64,000 nt of DNA from Candidatus Poribacteria bacterium (GTDB lineage Bacteria > Poribacteria > WGA-4E > WGA-3G), in contig CBDANF010000002.1 in assembly GCA_965197475.1 (NCBI GenBank), positions 1,376,001 through 1,440,000 of the forward strand. The letters run 5' to 3'. Positions 1,973 through 56,477 of the stretch are shown piece after piece. The notes under the pieces were generated by a model. The model saw nothing but the letters and a program-made list of their open reading frames with translations. It was not told the DNA's origin and made no database searches. The translations under genes were made by a program, and so were the position numbers. Position 1 is the stretch's first letter, and each line of letters starts with the position of its first letter.

Positions 1973-3010
1973 ATGTATAAAAGTGCGATGTTAGGGTGCG
2001 GTGGACGCGCCCGAGGGCATGCAAGTGCCTATCGCTTCGTTAAAGGTGGTAAACTCGCAGCAGTCTGTGATATGAACGAAGAACGTCTCAACGATTTCGG
2101 CGATCAATTTGATATATCTTTACGTTACACAGATTTAGATAAGATGCTTGAGAAAGAGAAACCGGATCTCCTTCACATTGTGACTGCTCCAGTACTACGC
2201 GGATCCAATGAGCGAATTCGGTATTCGTTGATGAAGCAGGCATCTGATCACGGTGTACCAGCGGCAATTGTAGAAAAACCGATTGCTGTTGAGAGTGAGG
2301 ACTGGAAGCAAATCGCGGGGTTGGCAGAAGAGACGAAAACAAAGTTTATTGTCAACACACAACTTAACTTCCATCCGAAAAACCTTGAACTAAAGCGAGA
2401 TGTGGCGGAAGGTAAAATTGGCGAGATAAAGTTTATTGATGCAAGTGCCCGAAGCACCCCTGTTGATCAAGCACCGCATGTGCTGCAGTTGGTATCGTCC
2501 TACATTGACAACTCCCGACCTGTGCGCGTTTTAGGTCAAATTTCCGGCAAAAAAAAGTTAGATTCAGCGCAACCTTCTCCGATGCATGCTGCTGGTCATG
2601 TTATGTATGAAAATGGTTTACACGTTTCTATTGCATTTGGGACCGGTGTTGGTACGATGGCATCCGATAACCAAGGTGTTCATTGCCATAAACGCGTTTT
2701 TGTCGTTGGAACGGAAGGGTTTGTACATTGGCGATTCAGCAGTTGGGAACGCGCGACACGAAAGGGTGGCTACGAAAGCGGTCCCCTGAACTATGGCGAA
2801 CAGGATATCCAGGCACAAGGAAATCTCACTGAAGCAGCCTTTGATTGGCTTGATGATGAGAGCAAAGAACATCCAACGCATCTCAAGCAATCCCTTGCTG
2901 AGTTCAACCTGCTTCTCGGAACGTACTACAGCGGTATAACTAACCAGATAATTGATCTTCCGTTTGATCCACCAGACGGTTTAATGGATTCTCTCAGGGA
3001 GAAGTTGTAG
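1973..3010 (+). CDS. Gfo/Idh/MocA family oxidoreductase
   Basis: LGCGGRA Rossmann motif, VEKP motif. Confidence 0.85.
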   Translation: MYKSAMLGCGGRARGHASAYRFVKGGKLAAVCDMNEERLNDFGDQFDISLRYTDLDKMLEKEKPDLLHIVTAPVLRGSNERIRYSLMKQASDHGVPAAIVEKPIAVESEDWKQIAGLAEETKTKFIVNTQLNFHPKNLELKRDVAEGKIGEIKFIDASARSTPVDQAPHVLQLVSSYIDNSRPVRVLGQISGKKKLDSAQPSPMHAAGHVMYENGLHVSIAFGTGVGTMASDNQGVHCHKRVFVVGTEGFVHWRFSSWERATRKGGYESGPLNYGEQDIQAQGNLTEAAFDWLDDESKEHPTHLKQSLAEFNLLLGTYYSGITNQIIDLPFDPPDGLMDSLREKL

Positions 3011-3083
3011 AATAACTTCTGAATTTTCCAATAGGTAGGATTAGTGGTAGCAGCGAATTTGTTCGTTACTACCGCTAATTGTT

Positions 3084-21699: not shown

Positions 21700-22076
21700 G
21701 ATCGGGACTCCTATGCAAATGTGTCGGTATTATGGTAGATTTTGGAATTACTTGGACACTCTGCAACAGTGAGGTTAGGAAACCTCCAAATCAAAGGTAT
21801 GAATGCCATTTAGGCATTCACCGCCTACCGGGAGACGAAAGTGTCTATATATTTTTACGCAATGAGTAGTTTTGGACTTGAGAAAAATTTTAAAAAATCG
21901 CTATAAAGCCTTGTGTCCACTGGGTTTATATGGTATAATATAGATAAGAAAATAGGGGGTTGGTAGCCCCCTAAATGAACACAAAAAGCGAGTTGCTTTT
22001 TGACGGTTCTAATCTTATCTGGTATTATATCAGAAATCCGTCAGAAAAAGCAACTCCTATTTCAAGGAGTTATCTG

Positions 22077-22958
22077 ATGGATTTGTTGAAGGTGATGGAG
22101 CGTTTTCCCGATCAAGAGAGTTGTATTTCGCATTTAGAGAAGATTCGGTGGCGAGGTAAACCTGTGTGTCCGCATTGTGAAAGCGATCATATAGGAGAAC
22201 GGACAGAAACAGAAATCGGTCGTATCGGTCGTTGGAACTGCCACGAGTGCCAAGTGAGTTTCAAGGTGACGTGCAGGTCGGTGTTTCACGGGACAAAGAT
22301 AGCGTTACAGAAGTGGTTTTTGGCTATTTCGTTGATAACGAATGCGAAGAAAAGTTTGTCAAGTCATCAACTTGCGCGCGATTTAGACTTGAATCAAAAG
22401 ACAGCATGGTATATCATGACTCGTATCCGTGCTGAAATGGCAAAGAAAGGTAACGTGCTACTACAAGGCATCATAGAGGCAGATGAAACTTACATCGGGG
22501 GTAAACCTCGTAAGCCTAATAAGAAGGAAGACCACGTGCCTGCCAAGCGTGGACGTGGAACAGAGAAAGACGCTATTATCGGGGCAGTACAGCGGGGCGG
22601 GAAAGTTGTAGCACAACTCGCTAAAGATTTGACAGGACGGACTATTTTAGACTTTATCCGAAGAGTCGTCAAAGTTGAGGATTCGGAGTTGATGACCGAT
22701 GAGTATAAGGCGTATCTCGCTATCGGCAAGGAGATGAAACACCATATCATAGATCATCAAACGCAATTTGTTGAGGGTGATGTCCACACAAACACAATTG
22801 AGGGGTTTTGGAGTCTACTCAAACGAGCTTGGTATGGAAGTCATCACCACTACTGGACTGAATATACGCCCCTGTATGTAGCAGAGGCGTGCTATAAATA
22901 CAACTATAGGAGCATTGACAGTATCTTTGATAAGTTTGTTAATGAAAGTATGCGGTGA
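22077..22958 (+). CDS. IS1595-family (ISXO2-like) transposase
   Basis: Zn ribbon CPHC..CHEC, EADETYIGG, MTDEY, HTNTIEGFWS; start chosen by AAGGAG RBS and match to 55554 copy (293 aa). Confidence 0.95.
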   Translation: MDLLKVMERFPDQESCISHLEKIRWRGKPVCPHCESDHIGERTETEIGRIGRWNCHECQVSFKVTCRSVFHGTKIALQKWFLAISLITNAKKSLSSHQLARDLDLNQKTAWYIMTRIRAEMAKKGNVLLQGIIEADETYIGGKPRKPNKKEDHVPAKRGRGTEKDAIIGAVQRGGKVVAQLAKDLTGRTILDFIRRVVKVEDSELMTDEYKAYLAIGKEMKHHIIDHQTQFVEGDVHTNTIEGFWSLLKRAWYGSHHHYWTEYTPLYVAEACYKYNYRSIDSIFDKFVNESMR

Positions 22959-22967
22959 TGGACACAA

Positions 22968-23240
22968 CTAAAGGTATGCCTTATCAATCTTGTTCTTTTT
23001 GTCATCAGGATTTGAGGGAAAATGCTGTGGAAGTTCAAAAGTTGGCTTTCCATCTTTCAGAGCATCGATCATGTCAAGAGCAAATTCCAACCTCTCATTG
23101 TCCGTGTCAAAAGGTTTCTGAATCACTACGCGAAAATTTGTATCAAGTTTTACAAGGGCGAGTTCTACAAAACTCTCTGTATGTAAGGCTAAAAGTGAAA
23201 AATCAACAGGATCGGAAGGCGGCTTGAATATTACCCACAT
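22968..23240 (-). CDS. Hypothetical 90-aa passenger protein
   Basis: AAGGAG RBS; positional and length equivalent of 54238..54510. Confidence 0.7.
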   Translation of the reverse strand: MWVIFKPPSDPVDFSLLALHTESFVELALVKLDTNFRVVIQKPFDTDNERLEFALDMIDALKDGKPTFELPQHFPSNPDDKKNKIDKAYL

Positions 23241-23296
23241 GGGTTTAGTCTCCTTTGGGGTTAGAGGGGACAGAGTCCCCTCGTTGGTTGGAATTG

Positions 23297-23686
23297 CTAA
23301 TACCCGTATGGAGAATCAGCAGCTGAAATTAAAATTATCCAAAGTCCCACCATAGTGCCAGTTCCAATAACACATCCTATTGTAGCATGTGTTATTTGGT
23401 CGTTTTTCACAAGTTTTTGATAAATGCTTGTGTAATAAGCAACATATTCTGGTGATTTTCCAAGCAATTTTTCTGGTAGTACCGTTGGTGTGACAACATA
23501 CGCAATTAACATACCGGTAACACCAAGTAGACAACCAACAGTTCCCCATATTTGAGTGTTTGCAAGTGTTGCATCACGTCGTGCATCAAATATTGCTTGC
23601 GCAGCATCACTTGTTTGTTGTGCAAGTGTGAGATATGGCGTAGTGAATAACATCACAACCATTATAAACGACAAAGTTTTCATCAA
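23297..23686 (-). CDS. Hypothetical secreted/membrane passenger protein
   Basis: Signal peptide plus two hydrophobic segments; AAGGA RBS. Confidence 0.75.
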   Translation of the reverse strand: MMKTLSFIMVVMLFTTPYLTLAQQTSDAAQAIFDARRDATLANTQIWGTVGCLLGVTGMLIAYVVTPTVLPEKLLGKSPEYVAYYTSIYQKLVKNDQITHATIGCVIGTGTMVGLWIILISAADSPYGY

Positions 23687-23753
23687 TGTTCCTTTTGTGA
23701 GGTAAAATGTGTATGTAGGGGATCAAAAGACCCCCTACATGTTTGCAAGCGGA

Positions 23754-23885
23754 TTATTTACACCGCTTGTGAGGTTTGACAGTTTCTTTCACCGTTGTGG
23801 CGGGACGGCGTTTGTCCGTGCCTTTGGGAAGGAACCGTCCATCTTTGGCATCGCGTACACGCGTGCCAGTGGCTTTTTTAGCCAT
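23754..23885 (-). CDS. Small basic 43-aa passenger protein (RDAKDGRF...TTVKET)
   Basis: GAGGT RBS; first gene after the leader; followed by a hairpin. Confidence 0.6.
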   Translation of the reverse strand: MAKKATGTRVRDAKDGRFLPKGTDKRRPATTVKETVKPHKRCK

Positions 23886-23992
23886 AGTATACCTCACTTT
23901 GCTTGAGATAAATTGGTGCATAGCGTATTTCCAGTGCGTTATGCACTGTTCAAGCATATAAAATTGATACGTTAAACGGGTATCGTTCGTAG

Positions 23993-24069
23993 GTTCGTTT
24001 ACACCTTTCTATGGGTGAGGGCAGGACACAACACAAGGAGTGTTGCGATAGAAATCCTGCCCAACGAAC
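23993..24069 (-). ncRNA. Predicted structured leader RNA (three-way junction with bulge-loop kissing)
   Basis: GTTCGTT/AACGAAC, GGGCAGGA/TCCTGCCC, CGCAACAC/GTGTTGTG, CACC/GGTG; bulge TTTCTAT complementary to loop ATAGAAA; begins just after TTGACA-N18-TATACT. Confidence 0.65.
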
Positions 24070-24153
24070 TTGAGAATAGTATAACATGGAAAGAATTTGA
24101 GTGTCAAGTGAAAAATTTGAGAAAAAATTTCAAGTCCAAAACTACTCATTGCG

Positions 24154-52512: not shown

Positions 52513-53498
52513 CGCTCATGTCAAGAGTAAGTGCTTTTGACAAGTTTTGCTATAAAATCAACACTGACAGCTTTTAGATTCATGACGAACTCACAGATTG
52601 CGACGTAACCGGCGAGGAACTTTTTATGAACGCCACGAAAGGGACGAAGGAAGTTTCGCAGCGTCGTCCAGGCACCTTCAATCGTCCTTGTATGGATCTC
52701 GTAAAGACCATCACCGTCTGCGTCTCTTGCCCACTCGCCATCCTTATGGAGAACAATCTCACGGGCGCGCTGAATACGGTTATAGCCACGCCAACCATCC
52801 GTATACACCGTTGAAGTCGGCAACGTCCACTGATGAACGTGTGTTGAAAGCGTCGCAGAATCGGTGTGCCGCACAACACGTAATCTCAGGAGACCGCTTT
52901 CGCGACCTTTCGTCCCAACAATAGGCGGACGATCATTGTCATAAGTCCCATGTCCCCTGCGTTTATTGCCACGCCGACGCGGCGGATCCGAAGCATCAAC
53001 GTGCTTATCGCCTTTTTCACCGGCGTTTTGAAACATCTCATCTGTTTCGACTTCAGCATCAGGTAAAGCAGCTTCGGGTTGTATCTGCTCTGCCGAAGTT
53101 TGGAGTTTACGTCTTATAGAAAGAACGGTTTGACGACTTAGACCCAGTTCACACCCGAGTTGTGCACTTGAAACACCTTGACAGACACCGCGCAAAAGCA
53201 GAACGACCTGTGAGGGACGAAACTGCGTGCCAGCAAAGACCGTCCCGGTATAGAGGTTGTAGATGCTCTCACAGTGTTTGCAGCGATACACTTGTAGACC
53301 ACTTGTTTCAGTCGGACGGAACTTGCGTGCCTCCGCCACGCTCGCTTGGCATTTTGGGCAACACAGCCCTTGAAGGTGGAAATGATCCAACACCCACGCT
53401 TGAGTTTTTTCTTCATCCAGGAGAGATTGTATTGGAAAGTCCATAGGTAACACGCTAACATAACTTTGAAAAAATAGCACTTACTTTTTACATGAGCC
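52513..53498 (-). mobile_element. IS1595-family element (transposase 53444..52521)
   Basis: TIR (C/G)GCTCATGT.AA.AGTAAGTGC; 8-bp TSD AATACATC; ETDEMF, YTDGW, TIEGAW. Confidence 0.92.
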
Positions 53499-53604
53499 AA
53501 TACATCTCAACTATTTATTTACGCAATGAGTAGTTTTGGACTTGAAAATTTTTCTCAAATTTTTTACTTGACAAAATCCTGCCAGTATAGTATCCTATTA
53601 ACAT

Positions 53605-53686
53605 CACGAAAACTTTGGTAGAGAATGTTACCCGCGTCGCAAGGCGCGGTCTCTACCATAACCAAGTAACATTGGAAAGTTTCGTG
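53605..53686 (+). ncRNA. Predicted structured leader RNA (same fold as 23993..24069)
   Basis: CACGAAAACTTT/AAAGTTTCGTG, GGTAGAGA/TCTCTACC, CCGCGTC-GCAA-GGCGCGG, CCAA/TTGG; bulge ATGTTAC complementary to GTAACAT; after TTGACA-N17-TATCCT. Confidence 0.65.
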
Positions 53687-53807
53687 TGTATAGTTCTCGT
53701 GAACCAAACAGTTAACATCATATTTATAGAATCAGCGACATAATAATCGCTTTGCATTTAGCTTATTACATCGCTGAAACCACTCCCTTTTACACAAGGA
53801 GACTATT

Positions 53808-54182
53808 ATGTCTTTGTTTTCAGATTGGAAAGAACGCAGGAAACACAAAGATAGAGATAAGTGGCTTATAAGGGAATTCCCTCGTCTTGCATTGACACAT
53901 TATGAAACCTTGCGTGATCTAAACCCTTCTGATACTCCCAAAAAGCAATTGTATGAAACGATTATTAGAGGGTTTGCTCTCACCTTTGGTGTGCCCAATG
54001 AAAAGCGCGATGAATTTACCGAATGCATTTTGCATACAGCAACTCTTGGTGAACCATCTGAACCTTTTGGTTTACGTATGATTGTTGTCTCACTTATATG
54101 CTCGACATGGAGCTTAAAGAGTGAACTATCTATTGCTGTAGCAATAACCAGCGTGTCAGAAGTAATCCCCGAATACTTATAA
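53808..54182 (+). CDS. Hypothetical passenger protein
   Basis: AAGGAG RBS, 124 aa. Confidence 0.7.
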   Translation: MSLFSDWKERRKHKDRDKWLIREFPRLALTHYETLRDLNPSDTPKKQLYETIIRGFALTFGVPNEKRDEFTECILHTATLGEPSEPFGLRMIVVSLICSTWSLKSELSIAVAITSVSEVIPEYL

Positions 54183-54237
54183 CAACTCTGACAACGAGGG
54201 GACCCTGTCCCCTCTAACTCCAAAGGAGATTAAAATC

Positions 54238-54510
54238 ATGTTTTTCGTTGAATATACCGAAAATAATGAAAGAAAAGCATTAAACTTGGCTATGTGTCAG
54301 AGAATTGAAACTGAAGAACGCCACATAAGCGCAAAAAGTAGTTTCTACATCTACATACATCACAAAGAACGCGCAAAAATGGTGTTAGAATTCAAATCAA
54401 AAGAGGAAATGTTAACCACTTTTGATAATTTTATGGACGCACTCAACCGGTGTCAAGCTCACTTGTTTTCCCAGAATGTTTTGTCTGAGGAACATTATCG
54501 GCAGTCCTGA
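54238..54510 (+). CDS. Hypothetical 90-aa passenger protein
   Basis: AAGGAG RBS within the conserved joint; equivalent of 22968..23240. Confidence 0.7.
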   Translation: MFFVEYTENNERKALNLAMCQRIETEERHISAKSSFYIYIHHKERAKMVLEFKSKEEMLTTFDNFMDALNRCQAHLFSQNVLSEEHYRQS

Positions 54511-54672
54511 ATTCTTCAACATACCTGTGAAATGCATCGATGAAATATTCAGCAACGATACAAAATTCTTCAAAGAATTCTGTTTCAGAAAGAGCAGATC
54601 TTGAAGGACTATCACTTTTCTTATCTAGTCCGTGCTGACTCAATACATCTGCCATAGAATCTCTAACTTCTC

Positions 54673-55554
54673 TCACAACATACTTTCGTTGACAAACTTG
54701 ACAAACAAGCTGTCAACGCTCCTATAGTTATACTTATAGCACGCTTCCGCCACATACAGCGGTGTGTATCCTGTCTGATAATGGTGATGCTGTCCATACC
54801 AAGCCCGTTTGAGTAGTGACCAGAACCCTTCAATCGTGTTTGTATGTGTATCACCATCAGCAAACTGCACCTTGTGGTTGATAACAGCGTGCTTCATTTC
54901 CTTTCCAATAGCGTTGTAAGCCTGATACTCATCGGTTATTAGTTCCGAGTCCTTTAGGTTTACAGCACTCCGAATAAACTCAAGGATAGTGCGTCCTGTG
55001 AGGTTATGTGCCACCTGTGCGACAACCCTACCCCCACGTTGCACTGCTCCTATTATAGCAGTTTTCTCCGTTCCTCTGCCACGTTTATGTGGTTCATCAT
55101 CTTCACGTTTGTTCTTTTTACGAGGTTTACCGCCAATATAGGTCTCATCTGCTTCAATGATACCTTGTAGTAAAGCCCCGCCTTTCTTTGCCATTTCAGC
55201 ACGAATACGTGCCATCATAAACCATGCTGTCTTTTGATTCAAGTCTAAATCGCGCGCCAGTTGATGCCTTGACAAACTTTTCTTCGCATTCGTTATCAAC
55301 GAAATAGCCAAAAACCACTTCTGTAACGCTATCTTTGTCCCGTGAAACACCGACCTGCACGTCACCTTGAAACTCACTTGGCACTCGTGGCAGTTCCAAC
55401 GACCGATACGACCGATTTCTGTTTCTGTCCGTTCTCCTATATGATCGCTTTCACAATGCGGACACACAGGTTTACCTCGCCAACGAATCTTCTCTAAATG
55501 TGCAATACAACTCTCTTGATCGGGGAAACGTTCCATGACCTTGATTAAATCCAT
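54673..55554 (-). CDS. IS1595-family (ISXO2-like) transposase
   Basis: EADETYIGG, ITDEY, HTNTIEGFWS. Confidence 0.95.
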   Translation of the reverse strand: MDLIKVMERFPDQESCIAHLEKIRWRGKPVCPHCESDHIGERTETEIGRIGRWNCHECQVSFKVTCRSVFHGTKIALQKWFLAISLITNAKKSLSRHQLARDLDLNQKTAWFMMARIRAEMAKKGGALLQGIIEADETYIGGKPRKKNKREDDEPHKRGRGTEKTAIIGAVQRGGRVVAQVAHNLTGRTILEFIRSAVNLKDSELITDEYQAYNAIGKEMKHAVINHKVQFADGDTHTNTIEGFWSLLKRAWYGQHHHYQTGYTPLYVAEACYKYNYRSVDSLFVKFVNESML

Positions 55555-55774
55555 CAGATAACTCCTTGAAATAGGAGTTGCTTTTTCTGACGGATTTCTG
55601 ATATAATATCAGATAAGATTAGAACCTTCAGAAAGCAACTCTGCTTTTTGGGTTAATTGGGAGGCTACAACCTCCCTTTTTTCTTATCTATATTATACCA
55701 TATAAACCTTGTCTACACAAGGGTTTATCACACTTTTTCACATGTTTTTTGCAAGTCCAAAACTACTTATTGCG

Positions 55775-56477
55775 TTGCTTTTTGCCTGCTTGTATCACTT
55801 GTATAATTCTGCTCTAAAGCACCGCTAGAATCTATGGTTGTAATTCGTTTCCCTTTATGTTTGGATTTTGGACTATACGCTTCTGTTAATGTGTTAAATT
55901 GAATTAGTTGACTGTTCTTTGCATAAAACAAGATTATGTCATGCATCCTTTGAAAATGTTTTGTAGCACCTGTCCATCGCTGATATGACCACACAATCTC
56001 ATTTCTGAAAAACTCATTTTTCCCTCGATTATCTTGATCCCAGATTGCGTCCATGATACCTTTGAGATAGTGGCTTGCTGTCGGATCACAATGCAAATAA
56101 ATACTACCTTTTTCAGTAAGTATACGGTGCATTTCGGCAAGGCGAGGCCCCATAAATGCAAGGTATGCACGCATCGCGCCTTTGTTGCCGGTGACTGCGT
56201 TCTGTAGGACTAAGTCGTATCCTTTTAAGCAGGTATCCAATGCTTTGTATGTGTCGCTTGTAATTGCGCGTGATTCAATGTCTGCGCGAGCGTCTTGTGC
56301 GGCGGTGTCCCAGGTCCATGTATCGGTAAACGCTTTCTTTTGTGCAAGGGAGTCACCGATGAAGGCGTTGTAGTCGCGTCCGGAGTTAAAGGGCGGGTCG
56401 GTGCATATTAAGTTGACGCGTTCGTCATCCATTTCTCGTAGGATTTGTAGGTTGTCGCCGAAGTAGAGTTTGTTCAT
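55775..56477 (-). pseudogene. N4/N6 DNA methyltransferase, 3'-truncated by IS1595 E2
   Basis: LYFGDNL, DPPF, GSIYLHCD..ASHYLK, FRNEIVW; no FxGxG motif before the IS end. Confidence 0.85.

What the first reader, a model, noticed from the sequence alone, without database searches (positions are those of the whole stretch)
53568..53690. Sequence-divergent, structure-conserved ~80-nt RNA at the cargo promoter of two IS1595 transposons
Seen: both elements (E1 minus strand 24069..23993; E2 plus strand 53605..53686) have an inward sigma70 promoter in the transposase-distal end, followed directly by the same predicted fold. The fold is closing stem P1, an 8-bp P2, a 7-nt one-sided bulge, hairpin P3, then a short hairpin P4 whose loop is complementary to the bulge (E1 TTTCTAT/ATAGAAA; E2 ATGTTAC/GTAACAT). 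The sequences differ almost entirely yet every helix and the kissing pair are kept, which is strong covariation. Established: size and topology recall the phage leader antisense RNAs P4 CI and P1 C4. Inference: an RNA-based control or specificity module, with element-specific loops, governing transposon cargo. In E2, TTAACATCA (complementary to the bulge) occurs both before (~53598) and after (~53712) the RNA, like cis targets; I saw no equivalent in E1.
Basis: partly seen in the sequence, partly recalled or inferred. Interest (0 to 1): 0.88.

Follow-up and report, generated by a model that had tools for sequence, protein, structure and literature searches.

The report
Structured leader RNA of Poribacteria mobile genes
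The claimed ~80-nt RNA is real: it is one member of a large, apparently undescribed family of pseudoknotted leader RNAs that sit right behind strong promoters of transposase, TnpB, homing-endonuclease and methylase genes in sponge-symbiont (Poribacteria) genomes and probably gate their expression.

Summary
Both window elements carry a sigma70-like promoter followed at once by the same fold: P1, P2, a 7-nt bulge, P3 and P4, with the P4 loop complementary to the bulge. The own genome holds 5 sequence variants in 25 IS1595 copies, plus 3-4 other loci. A covariance model hit 90 of 151 sampled genomes of the phylum, about 480 matches. On 43 distinct sequences 95.6% of cells pair (69.9% shuffled). 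All 6 pseudoknot pairs covary, although the model did not contain them. No Rfam 15 family matches.

The RNA is not tied to IS1595 cargo. It also occurs in cargo-less IS copies and ahead of TnpB, GIY-YIG, DNA-methylase and IS1595 transposase genes. What does covary is a second copy (X2) of the P1 3' strand, 5-10 nt downstream. It gives an alternative helix P1' that often contains the start codon.

Best reading (about 0.5): a cis-acting, bistable 5' leader that gates translation or read-through of selfish DNA-enzyme genes. Rivals are a stable trans-acting sRNA and a ligand-sensing riboswitch. Transcript ends are not shown.

The parts
53522..53544 (+). E2 terminal inverted repeat, on the side far from the transposase gene
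   Evidence: Exact match to the TIR.
53568..53596 (+). E2 sigma70-like promoter TTGACA-17-TATCCT. The predicted start is ~53603-53605.
   Evidence: 10 of 12 positions. The same promoter-to-RNA spacing is seen in all variants.
53605..53686 (+). E2 leader RNA core. P1 53605-53616 / 53676-53686; P2 53617-53624 / 53650-53657; bulge 53625-53631; P3 53632-53649; P4 53662-53675. Pseudoknot: bulge with 53666-53672.
   Evidence: MFE fold; covariance-model match of 71 bits; covariation.
53693..53702 (+). E2 X2: a second copy of the P1 3' strand (GTTCTCGTGA). It can pair with 53604-53613 to form the alternative helix P1'. GTG lies at 53699-53701.
   Evidence: Read; family-wide covariation.
53699..53743 (+). 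Possible 14-codon leader ORF that starts inside X2 (inferred, not shown).
   Evidence: The L141 copy differs by two changes, both synonymous.
53734..53751 (+). Weak terminator-like hairpin between the RNA and the first cargo ORF.
   Evidence: 5 pairs, tail TTGCATTTAG.
53808..54510 (+). E2 cargo ORFs of 124 aa and 90 aa, function unknown.
   Evidence: No Pfam, NCBIfam or PADLOC match.
54673..55554 (-). E2 IS1595-family transposase gene, convergent with the cargo.
   Evidence: The E1 homologue has DDE_Tnp_IS1595 and Zn_ribbon_IS1595.
55752..55774 (-). E2 second TIR (1 mismatch).
24131..24153 (-). E1 TIR on the leader side.
24078..24107 (-). E1 promoter TTGACA-18-TATACT, with TG before the -10 hexamer.
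   Evidence: 11 of 12 positions.
23993..24069 (-). E1 leader RNA core. P1 24069-24063 / 23999-23993; P2 24062-24055 / 24026-24019; bulge 24054-24048; P3 24047-24027; P4 24017-24002.
23966..23990 (-). E1 X2 (ACGAAC, 23990-23985), directly followed by the hairpin GATAC..GTATC (23984-23966).
   Evidence: In suboptimal folds the hairpin forms only in the P1' state.
23883..23956 (-). A second conserved hairpin ahead of the 43-aa basic-protein ORF.
   Evidence: 16 pairs, 2 with compensatory change, in 4 sequences.
22968..23885 (-). E1 cargo ORFs: 43-aa basic protein, 129-aa membrane protein and 90-aa protein.
21858..22958 (+). E1 second TIR (21858-21880) and IS1595 transposase gene (21975-22958).

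Best explanation
The ~80-nt element is the 5'-terminal domain of transcripts that start at a strong sigma70-type promoter. It belongs to a Poribacteria-restricted family of leader RNAs.

Its fold is a three-way junction. P1 closes the junction. P2 stacks on P3, with a 7-nt bulge on one side. P4 is a short hairpin whose loop pairs with the bulge to lock the domain as a pseudoknot.

The 5' strand of P1 (X') has two alternative partners: X inside the domain, and a near-identical copy X2 that lies 5-10 nt downstream. I propose that the leader acts in cis as a two-state gate.
- With P1 (X':X) formed, X2 is free.
- With P1' (X':X2) formed, X2 is sequestered together with what it carries. That is the real start codon in TnpB genes, a GTG/ATG of a short leader ORF in E2-like IS1595 elements, or the flank of a GATAC/GTATC hairpin in E1-like elements.

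In this way a strong promoter is coupled to limited or conditional production of DNA-acting selfish proteins and IS passenger operons.

Shown: the fold, the pseudoknot, both alternative helices by covariation, the promoter spacing, and the gene contexts.
Inferred: that the RNA is made, which state is ON, and what shifts the balance.
For: Fold and significance.

Five variants in the own genome give the same MFE fold. A model built from variant C alone finds variants A and D only by structure, at 24.8 and 25.9 bits with filters off.

Family-wide covariation on 43 distinct sequences:
- 95.6% of cells are paired, against 69.9% in shuffles (0 of 500 reach it).
- 30 of 34 pairs have changes on both sides.
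- Sliding the partners by 1-3 columns gives 35-45% paired.
- All 6 pseudoknot pairs covary and 86.8% of their cells pair, although the pseudoknot was not in the model.

Strand: many G-U pairs are present, and the opposite strand scores 12 bits against 110.

Alternative helix, on a structure-blind MAFFT alignment of 43 rows:
- P1 is 93.0% paired with score 0.740 (shuffled 0.269).
- P1' is 82.9% paired with score 0.568 (shuffled 0.275).
- 0 of 500 shuffles reach the observed percentage paired or score in either case.
- The best contiguous Watson-Crick run between X' and the downstream sequence is 6.8, against 4.2 with permuted partners (0 of 200).

P1 and P1' lie within about 0-5 kcal/mol of each other in most of the 43 leaders folded, and P1' is the MFE in 6 of them.

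The TnpB ORF start lies inside X2 in 11 of 12 TnpB instances.

A promoter directly precedes P1 in the instances read.

Contexts by Pfam: OrfB_IS605 + Cas12f1-like_TNB, GIY-YIG, N6_N4_Mtase, N6_Mtase, DUF805.
Against: - No transcript ends are shown. Only contigs from RNA libraries were available, and those cannot show starts, ends or strand.
- The supposed output differs by lineage. In 7 of 7 GIY-YIG leaders the start codon lies 16-20 nt beyond X2. About 14 of 43 leaders have no start codon at X2 (my count).
- Four instances have no ORF at all before the convergent transposase gene. In the L082:4033 type the promoter, RNA, X2 and a hairpin with TTTT are the only insert between two TIR copies. 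That fits a free-standing sRNA better.
- P1 is usually at least as stable as P1'.
- No signal that would flip the switch is known.
- The pseudoknot's steric feasibility within one molecule was not tested.
Confidence: 0.5

Rival explanations
1. It is a free-standing, stable small RNA. It is either terminated or cut off just after X/X2, and it acts in trans. One version is copy-number-dependent inhibition of sister elements. Another, in cargo-less IS copies, is that it forms the 5' cap of an antisense transcript across the transposase gene.
For: - Cargo-less elements keep it: the L035 type has 8 identical copies, and L044/L163, L055 and L082:4033 also carry it.
- The L082:4033 type has TIR-promoter-RNA-X2-hairpin+TTTT-TIR, with nothing else between the TIRs.
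- The 5' end is buried in P1, as in stable RNAs.
- P1/X2 and the bulge are the most variable segments: mean pairwise identity is 0.44-0.49, against 0.78 for P2. That is what address-like sequences would show.
Against: - There is no consistent terminator. E2 has one weak site and E1 has none.
- In TnpB genes the ORF starts 11-13 nt after the core, inside X2, which leaves no room for a separate gene.
- X' is paired in P1, so it is not free for trans pairing.
- Variants within the own genome share 6-nt stretches of X' (A/D and B/B'), so they are not clearly orthogonal.
Confidence: 0.2
2. It is a riboswitch. The three-way junction and pseudoknot bind a small molecule or ion, which stabilises P1 against P1'.
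For: - The architecture matches that of small aptamers: a three-way junction with a distal tertiary contact and a switching P1.
- Two mutually exclusive helices are both supported by covariation.
- The base pairs around the junction are nearly invariant: G11-C54 in 43 of 43, G15-C50 in 42 of 42 cells with letters on both sides, A14-U51 in 42 of 43.
Against: - The junction strands are short (0-1, 3-6 and 0-4 nt) and only loosely conserved.
- The controlled genes are transposases, nucleases and methylases, not the metabolism or transport of any ligand.
- No Rfam riboswitch matches at E <= 1.
Confidence: 0.12
3. It is only a protective 5' structure that stabilises mRNA against 5'-end-dependent nucleases, with no switching.
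For: The domain starts at the predicted transcription start, and its 5' end is base-paired.
Against: A simple hairpin would do this job. This reading does not explain the maintained pseudoknot or the covarying X2 copy.
Confidence: 0.08
4. It is a DNA-level feature: a single-stranded DNA fold, a recombination site, or a transposase-binding site at the IS end.
For: It lies close to IS ends and to the left ends of TnpB elements.
Against: - It is always at a fixed distance behind a promoter and on the transcribed strand.
- G-U pairs make the fold strand-specific.
- It occurs with unrelated element types and with non-IS genes.
- Elements with near-identical TIRs and transposases carry different RNA sequences.
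Confidence: 0.03

Closest known systems
c4 antisense RNA of phages P1/P7 (immI operon; Rfam C4, c4-2, isrK). The biology is recalled from memory, not from a call.
   Same: About 77 nt. It lies promoter-proximal in the leader of an operon of a mobile element. It is complementary to a short sequence repeated downstream in the same transcript, near a translation start. Related elements differ in the pairing sequences.
   Different: There is no match to any Rfam model at gathering score or at E <= 1. In c4 two loops pair with the targets. Here the bulge and loop pair with each other, and it is the 5' strand of the closing helix that matches the downstream repeat. The hosts are Poribacteria IS and TnpB elements, not P1-like phages.
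Purine-riboswitch-type aptamers: a three-way junction with a loop-loop contact and a switching P1 (recalled).
   Same: About 70-80 nt. P1 closes a three-way junction whose two arms are tied by a distal tertiary pairing. P1 competes with an alternative helix that controls expression.
   Different: The competition here is for the 5' strand of P1, by a duplicate 3' strand. The junction is short and weakly conserved. There is no metabolic gene context and no Rfam match.
phi29-family packaging RNA (pRNA) (recalled).
   Same: A three-way junction RNA with very low sequence identity between relatives. An internal (bulge-type) loop and a hairpin loop covary as complements.
   Different: In pRNA the loops pair between molecules to build a ring on the phage portal. 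Here there is no phage packaging context, and whether the pairing is within or between molecules is untested.
Translational gating of selfish DNA enzymes by 5' RNA structure: IS10 fold-back inhibition and RNA-OUT, I-TevI, and the MS2 maturation-gene leader (recalled).
   Same: A start codon or ribosome-binding site of a transposase or homing-endonuclease gene is occluded by pairing with an upstream segment of its own mRNA. Alternative or kinetic folds decide how much is translated.
   Different: Those are simple hairpins or long-distance pairings specific to one element. This is a shared, pseudoknotted module reused by at least four unrelated gene families.

Membership tests
Rfam C4 / c4-2 / isrK antisense RNAs | Match to the family covariance model. 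| tested here: not met
   The window at gathering score gave only rRNA and tRNA. Eight loci (22 kb, 5 variants) at E <= 1 gave nothing at the RNA sites.
Rfam C4 / c4-2 / isrK antisense RNAs | Loop sequences complementary to target sites downstream in the same transcript, covarying with them. | tested here: not met
   The bulge and loop pair with each other. The downstream TTAACAT does not follow the bulge in L141.
IS1595 family (the host element of the two window copies) | DDE_Tnp_IS1595 transposase with an N-terminal zinc ribbon, and terminal inverted repeats. | tested here: met
   PF12762 at 1.1e-35 and PF12760 at 1.8e-09. TIR pairs are present.
Riboswitch (ligand-binding aptamer plus expression platform) | Mutually exclusive helices supported by covariation. 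| tested here: met
Riboswitch (ligand-binding aptamer plus expression platform) | A highly conserved unpaired core, and association with genes for one ligand's metabolism or transport. | tested here: not met
   The junctions are short and variable. The genes are TnpB, GIY-YIG, methylases and IS cargo.
Riboswitch (ligand-binding aptamer plus expression platform) | Ligand binding. | not testable with these tools
   This needs in-line probing or SHAPE.
TnpB guide RNA (omega/reRNA) | Encoded at the 3' end of tnpB, overlapping the right end of the element. | tested here: not met
   The RNA lies 5' of tnpB, 11-13 nt before the ORF body.
Type III toxin-antitoxin RNA (ToxI-like) | Tandem array of short pseudoknot repeats ahead of an endoribonuclease gene. 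| tested here: not met
   There is a single copy per locus by reading and by model hits. No toxin family was found among the cargo. Tandem Repeats Finder was not run.
Self-cleaving ribozymes (hammerhead, twister, pistol, hatchet) | Match to the family model and its conserved catalytic core. | tested here: not met
   No Rfam match at E <= 1. By reading the alignment, there is no conserved unpaired core.

The most novel reading that the evidence does not exclude
The leader is an address-coded RNA-RNA recognition module. The stable 5' domain accumulates with copy number. Its X' strand then captures the sister's X2 and start codon. This would give element-specific multicopy inhibition across a whole mobilome (IS1595, TnpB, GIY-YIG, methylases). 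It would also explain why the 'address' parts, P1/X2 and the pseudoknot, are the fastest-changing segments even though P1 is constrained three ways.
Probability: 0.12. Interest if true: 0.9.

Novelty: new variant of a known kind. Interest (0 to 1): 0.74.

Why it matters
If this holds, it adds a large family of structured RNAs, about 480 model hits in 90 of 151 sampled Poribacteria genomes. The fold has an unusual design. One 5' strand is shared by two covarying 3' partners, and a fast-evolving internal pseudoknot sits beside them.

It would show that unrelated selfish genes in one phylum have converged on, or exchanged, the same post-transcriptional control module. Those genes include DDE transposases, RNA-guided TnpB nucleases, homing endonucleases and orphan methylases.

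It also gives a compact, sequence-tolerant RNA scaffold with two freely recodable helices, which is attractive for engineering. And it flags a regulatory layer for TnpB systems on the 5' side, separate from the known 3' guide RNA.

Tried and rejected
- MAFFT on the five own-genome variants misaligned A and D, and P1 in B/B'/C. I therefore built a single-sequence model and realigned by structure.
- With default filters, model R1 missed A and D.
- The reversed-genome control for my descriptor was flawed. Reversal plus reverse complement gives the plain complement, which keeps the fold, so its 24 hits were the true loci. I replaced it with a block shuffle: 1 hit, against 56 raw hits (28 loci) in the real genome.
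- The script crashed at a truncated locus after printing 50 of 55 rows. In those rows X2 had more Watson-Crick pairs than X in 3, the same number in 17 and fewer in 30.
- Bridge-RNA-like or DNA-target reading: the flanks next to the TIRs are AT-rich and unrelated to the bulge (by reading). Rejected.
- attC-like reading: the polarity of the terminal repeats is opposite to what I recall of attC cores, and a promoter always precedes the element. Rejected.
- Extending P1' into the conserved GAAYC/ACC motif after X2: no partner was found.
- RNA evidence. Four metatranscriptome runs of one study hold contigs that cover both RNA loci of L117, while the unique flank 2679-3077 has no cover. These are contigs of multi-copy DNA-like sequence. 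They show no ends or strand, so I do not count this as expression evidence.
- The 'viral' contig L170 carries a restriction-modification system and GIY-YIG genes but no recognisable phage gene among the 9 ORFs scanned. I make no claim that the RNA occurs in phages.
- Literature. The following searches brought nothing relevant: 'IS1595'+'passenger gene' (18 papers, listing only), 'Poribacteria'+'RNA motif' (0), 'Poribacteria-1' (0), 'Poribacteria'+'noncoding RNA'+'transposase' (0), 'Poribacteria'+'riboswitch' (1, unrelated by title), 'Poribacteria'+'insertion sequence' (10, listing only), and a 6-term OR search (listing only).
- I recall a 'Poribacteria-1' motif from Weinberg et al. 2017. A word search of that paper's main text found 'Poribacteria' 0 times. 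Its supplements, which list the motifs, are closed, so identity with that motif cannot be excluded by reading. The negative Rfam search argues against it only if that motif is in Rfam.

Full report
**What is in the window**

It bounds two elements of about 2.3 kb: E1 (21858-24153) and E2 (53522-55774).

Each element encodes an IS1595-family transposase. The E1 protein has DDE_Tnp_IS1595 at 1.1e-35 and Zn_ribbon_IS1595 at 1.8e-09. Each also carries two or three small ORFs on the opposite strand.

At the end far from the transposase gene there is a near-consensus promoter. In E2 it is TTGACA-17-TATCCT at 53568-53596. In E1 it is TTGACA-18-TATACT at 24107-24078. The claimed RNA begins 8-9 nt after the -10 hexamer.

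Their z-scores are -5.8 and -6.5, and 0 of 200 shuffles fold as well. The 7-nt bulge and the P4 loop are complementary in both. The two RNAs share 28 of 70 aligned letters, so 'differ almost entirely' is somewhat overstated.

**More copies in the same genome**

The TIR occurs 74 times with up to 3 mismatches, and the control pattern 0 times. Pairing the TIRs gives 32 elements.
- 24 carry the promoter and RNA.
- 8 do not: seven of 1139-1140 bp and one of 965 bp.

The RNA comes in five sequence variants. All give the same MFE fold and all keep bulge/loop complementarity:
- A (the E1 type): TTTCTAT/ATAGAAA
- B (the E2 type): ATGTTAC/GTAACAT
- B': ATGTTAG/CTAACAT
- C: ATCTCAT/ATGAGAT
- D: CTGTTAG/CTAACAG

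A covariance model built from variant C alone finds A and D only when the sequence filters are off (24.8 and 25.9 bits). They are therefore related by structure rather than by sequence.

I also wrote a purely structural descriptor: a 6-nt bulge/loop complement plus P2, P3, P4 and P1. Over the whole genome it returned 28 loci: the 25 IS1595 copies and 3 others. A block-shuffled genome returned 1.

**The family**

Relatives of the transposase are almost all in Candidatus Poribacteria assemblies from sponges, so the window's organism is of that phylum.

Model R2 (five sequences) matched 90 of 151 sampled genomes of the phylum.
- One family: 84 of 99 genomes.
- A second family: 5 of 26.
- The other seven families sampled: 0 of 25.
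- About 480 matches in all.

On 43 distinct sequences from 44 loci:
- 95.6% of cells form standard pairs, against 69.9% in shuffles (0 of 500 reach it).
- 30 of 34 pairs show changes on both sides.
- Sliding the partners by 1-3 columns drops pairing to 35-45%.
- All six pseudoknot pairs show compensatory changes and are 86.8% paired, although the pseudoknot was not part of the model. The unpaired cells come mostly from rows of the E1 lineage, which the model shifted by one column.

G-U pairs, and a score of 12 bits against 110 on the opposite strand, fix the strand.

No Rfam 15 family matches, either at gathering score on the window or at E <= 1 on eight loci covering five variants.

**It is not a cargo module**

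The contexts of 56 distinct instances were tallied. This is not a random sample, and two of the matches are weak.
- 22 are IS1595-associated.
  - In 4 of these there is no ORF between the RNA and the convergent transposase gene. L035 and L044 were read. The L035 type has 8 identical copies in its genome.
  - In 3 the leader reads into the transposase gene itself.
- 12 precede TnpB genes (OrfB_IS605 + Cas12f1-like_TNB).
- 7 precede GIY-YIG genes.
- 4 precede DNA-methylase genes, one of them also counted among the IS1595-associated instances.
- 1 precedes a ThuA-like gene.
- 11 have no neighbour that I could name.

The own genome has such a TnpB copy, with the ORF starting 13 nt after the core.

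In the L082:4033 type, the promoter, RNA, X2 and a hairpin followed by TTTT are all that lies between two direct TIR copies.

An exact pattern for the commonest subfamily found further copies.
- Viral contigs: 6 of 8 loci were confirmed by R2.
- Metagenome contigs: 7 of 19 loci were confirmed, one of them weakly.
- The downstream genes are again GIY-YIG, TnpB and lipoprotein-like.

**The downstream repeat**

It does not track the bulge, however: L141 has bulge ATCTTAC yet keeps GTTAACAT downstream.

What is conserved in nearly all instances is a second copy (X2) of the 3' strand of P1, starting 5-10 nt after the core. Its sequence changes together with P1.
- The best contiguous Watson-Crick run between the P1 5' strand and the downstream 40 nt averages 6.8. 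With permuted partners it averages 4.2, and no permutation exceeds 4.7 (0 of 200).
- On a structure-blind MAFFT alignment, P1 is 93.0% paired (score 0.740 against 0.269 shuffled) and the alternative helix P1' is 82.9% paired (0.568 against 0.275). No shuffle (0 of 500) reaches the observed percentage paired or score in either case, and slides give 26-44% for P1'.
- That alignment held 43 of 54 rows. The dropped rows are listed under Tried and rejected.
- In some rows X2 complements the 5' strand better than X does, for example L146, L192 and L144.

The two states lie within about 0-5 kcal/mol of each other in most of the 43 leaders folded, and P1' is the MFE in six of them.

What X2 carries depends on the lineage.
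- In 11 of 12 TnpB leaders the real ATG lies inside X2, and the Shine-Dalgarno sequence lies in the X-X2 linker.
- In E2-like leaders a GTG/ATG sits at the 3' end of X2, and P1' extends to 10 bp by using the first transcribed nucleotides.
- In E1-like leaders X2 abuts a GATAC/GTATC hairpin that forms only in the P1' state in suboptimal folds.
- In GIY-YIG leaders the start codon lies 16-20 nt further on.

**Mechanism**

The shared features point to a cis-acting two-state leader:
- a strong promoter;
- a 5' end buried in P1;
- a compact pseudoknotted domain;
- one 5' strand with two covarying partners;
- a start codon often inside the second partner.

Such a leader would limit or condition the output of proteins that cut or modify DNA, and of IS passenger operons. 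This follows the known logic by which IS10, I-TevI and the MS2 maturation gene hide their start sites (recalled, not tested here).

Two things are not shown: which state is ON, and what shifts the balance. Folding kinetics, a protein, an ion or ligand, or another RNA are all possible.

The cargo-less and RNA-only elements keep the free-standing sRNA reading alive. The conserved junction-proximal pairs and the twin helices keep a riboswitch reading alive.

P1/X2 and the bulge are the most variable segments, with mean pairwise identity 0.44-0.49 against 0.78 for P2. That is odd for a helix constrained three ways, and it motivates the address-code reading given as the novel case.

**Novelty and limits**

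I found no description in Rfam 15 or in the searched literature. A motif list in closed supplements could hold it.

Expression is not demonstrated. The RNA-library data were contigs only.

Noticed in passing
window 23883-23956 (-); L032:225-299; L034:4878-4951 (-); L153:1628-1701: A second conserved RNA-like structure lies between the leader and the 43-aa basic-protein ORF. An outer stem GCTTGA..TCAAGC encloses GTGCATA..TATGCAC. It has 16 pairs, 2 of them with compensatory change, in 4 sequences.
   Followed up: partly
window 22968-23240 (-); L031:469-840; L032:978-1301; L145:596-916 (-); own genome C3 near 2864840: A recurrent small protein (90-127 aa) sits as the last cargo gene. Its C-terminal part resembles ..AL..G...FELP... 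The copies are 27-42% identical to one another by blastx. None has a Pfam, NCBIfam or PADLOC match.
   Followed up: partly
window 23754-23885 (-) and relatives (L143, L153, L034, L082:2336): A 42-44-aa, very basic protein (..GRFLPKGTDKRRPATTVKETVKP..) is the first cargo gene in many IS1595 copies. No family match.
   Followed up: no
own genome, e.g. C2:638378-639516: Seven copies of a 1139-1140-bp IS1595 relative, and one 965-bp element, have related TIRs but no promoter-RNA module.
   Followed up: partly
window ~21950-21975 (+) and ~55560-55600 (-); seen: On the transposase side, a GC hairpin (AGGGGGTTGGTAGCCCCCT) lies just before the transposase start. In other copies it is AGGGAGGTTGTAGCCTCCC or GGGGGTATCAACCCCC, so the stem covaries.
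   Followed up: no
L082:2336-2413, L151:1501-1578, L157:1501-1578: In some IS1595 relatives the same leader sits on the transposase side and reads into the transposase gene, at +498 to +588 on the same strand.
   Followed up: partly
window 55767-56477 (-): A 236-aa ORF with a DNA-methylase-like N terminus (..DPPFNSGRDYN..) ends inside the E2 TIR. E2 may have inserted into a methylase gene.
   Followed up: no
window 52521-53480 (-): A 319-aa ORF right next to E2 has a Cys-rich N terminus and a transposase-like look. It may be another IS1595/ISXO2-type gene. Not scanned.
   Followed up: no
L160:2725-2857: A weak Rfam HgcC-like match (20.3 bits, E 0.73, below gathering score) lies at the 3' end of a TnpB-like ORF, where a guide RNA would be expected.
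   Followed up: no
L170 (IMG/VR contig), 14.7 kb: A contig filed as viral carries two leader copies. Among 9 scanned ORFs only a TdeIII-type restriction enzyme, a methylase and a GIY-YIG/NUMOD3 gene were recognised. It looks like a genomic island rather than a phage.
   Followed up: partly
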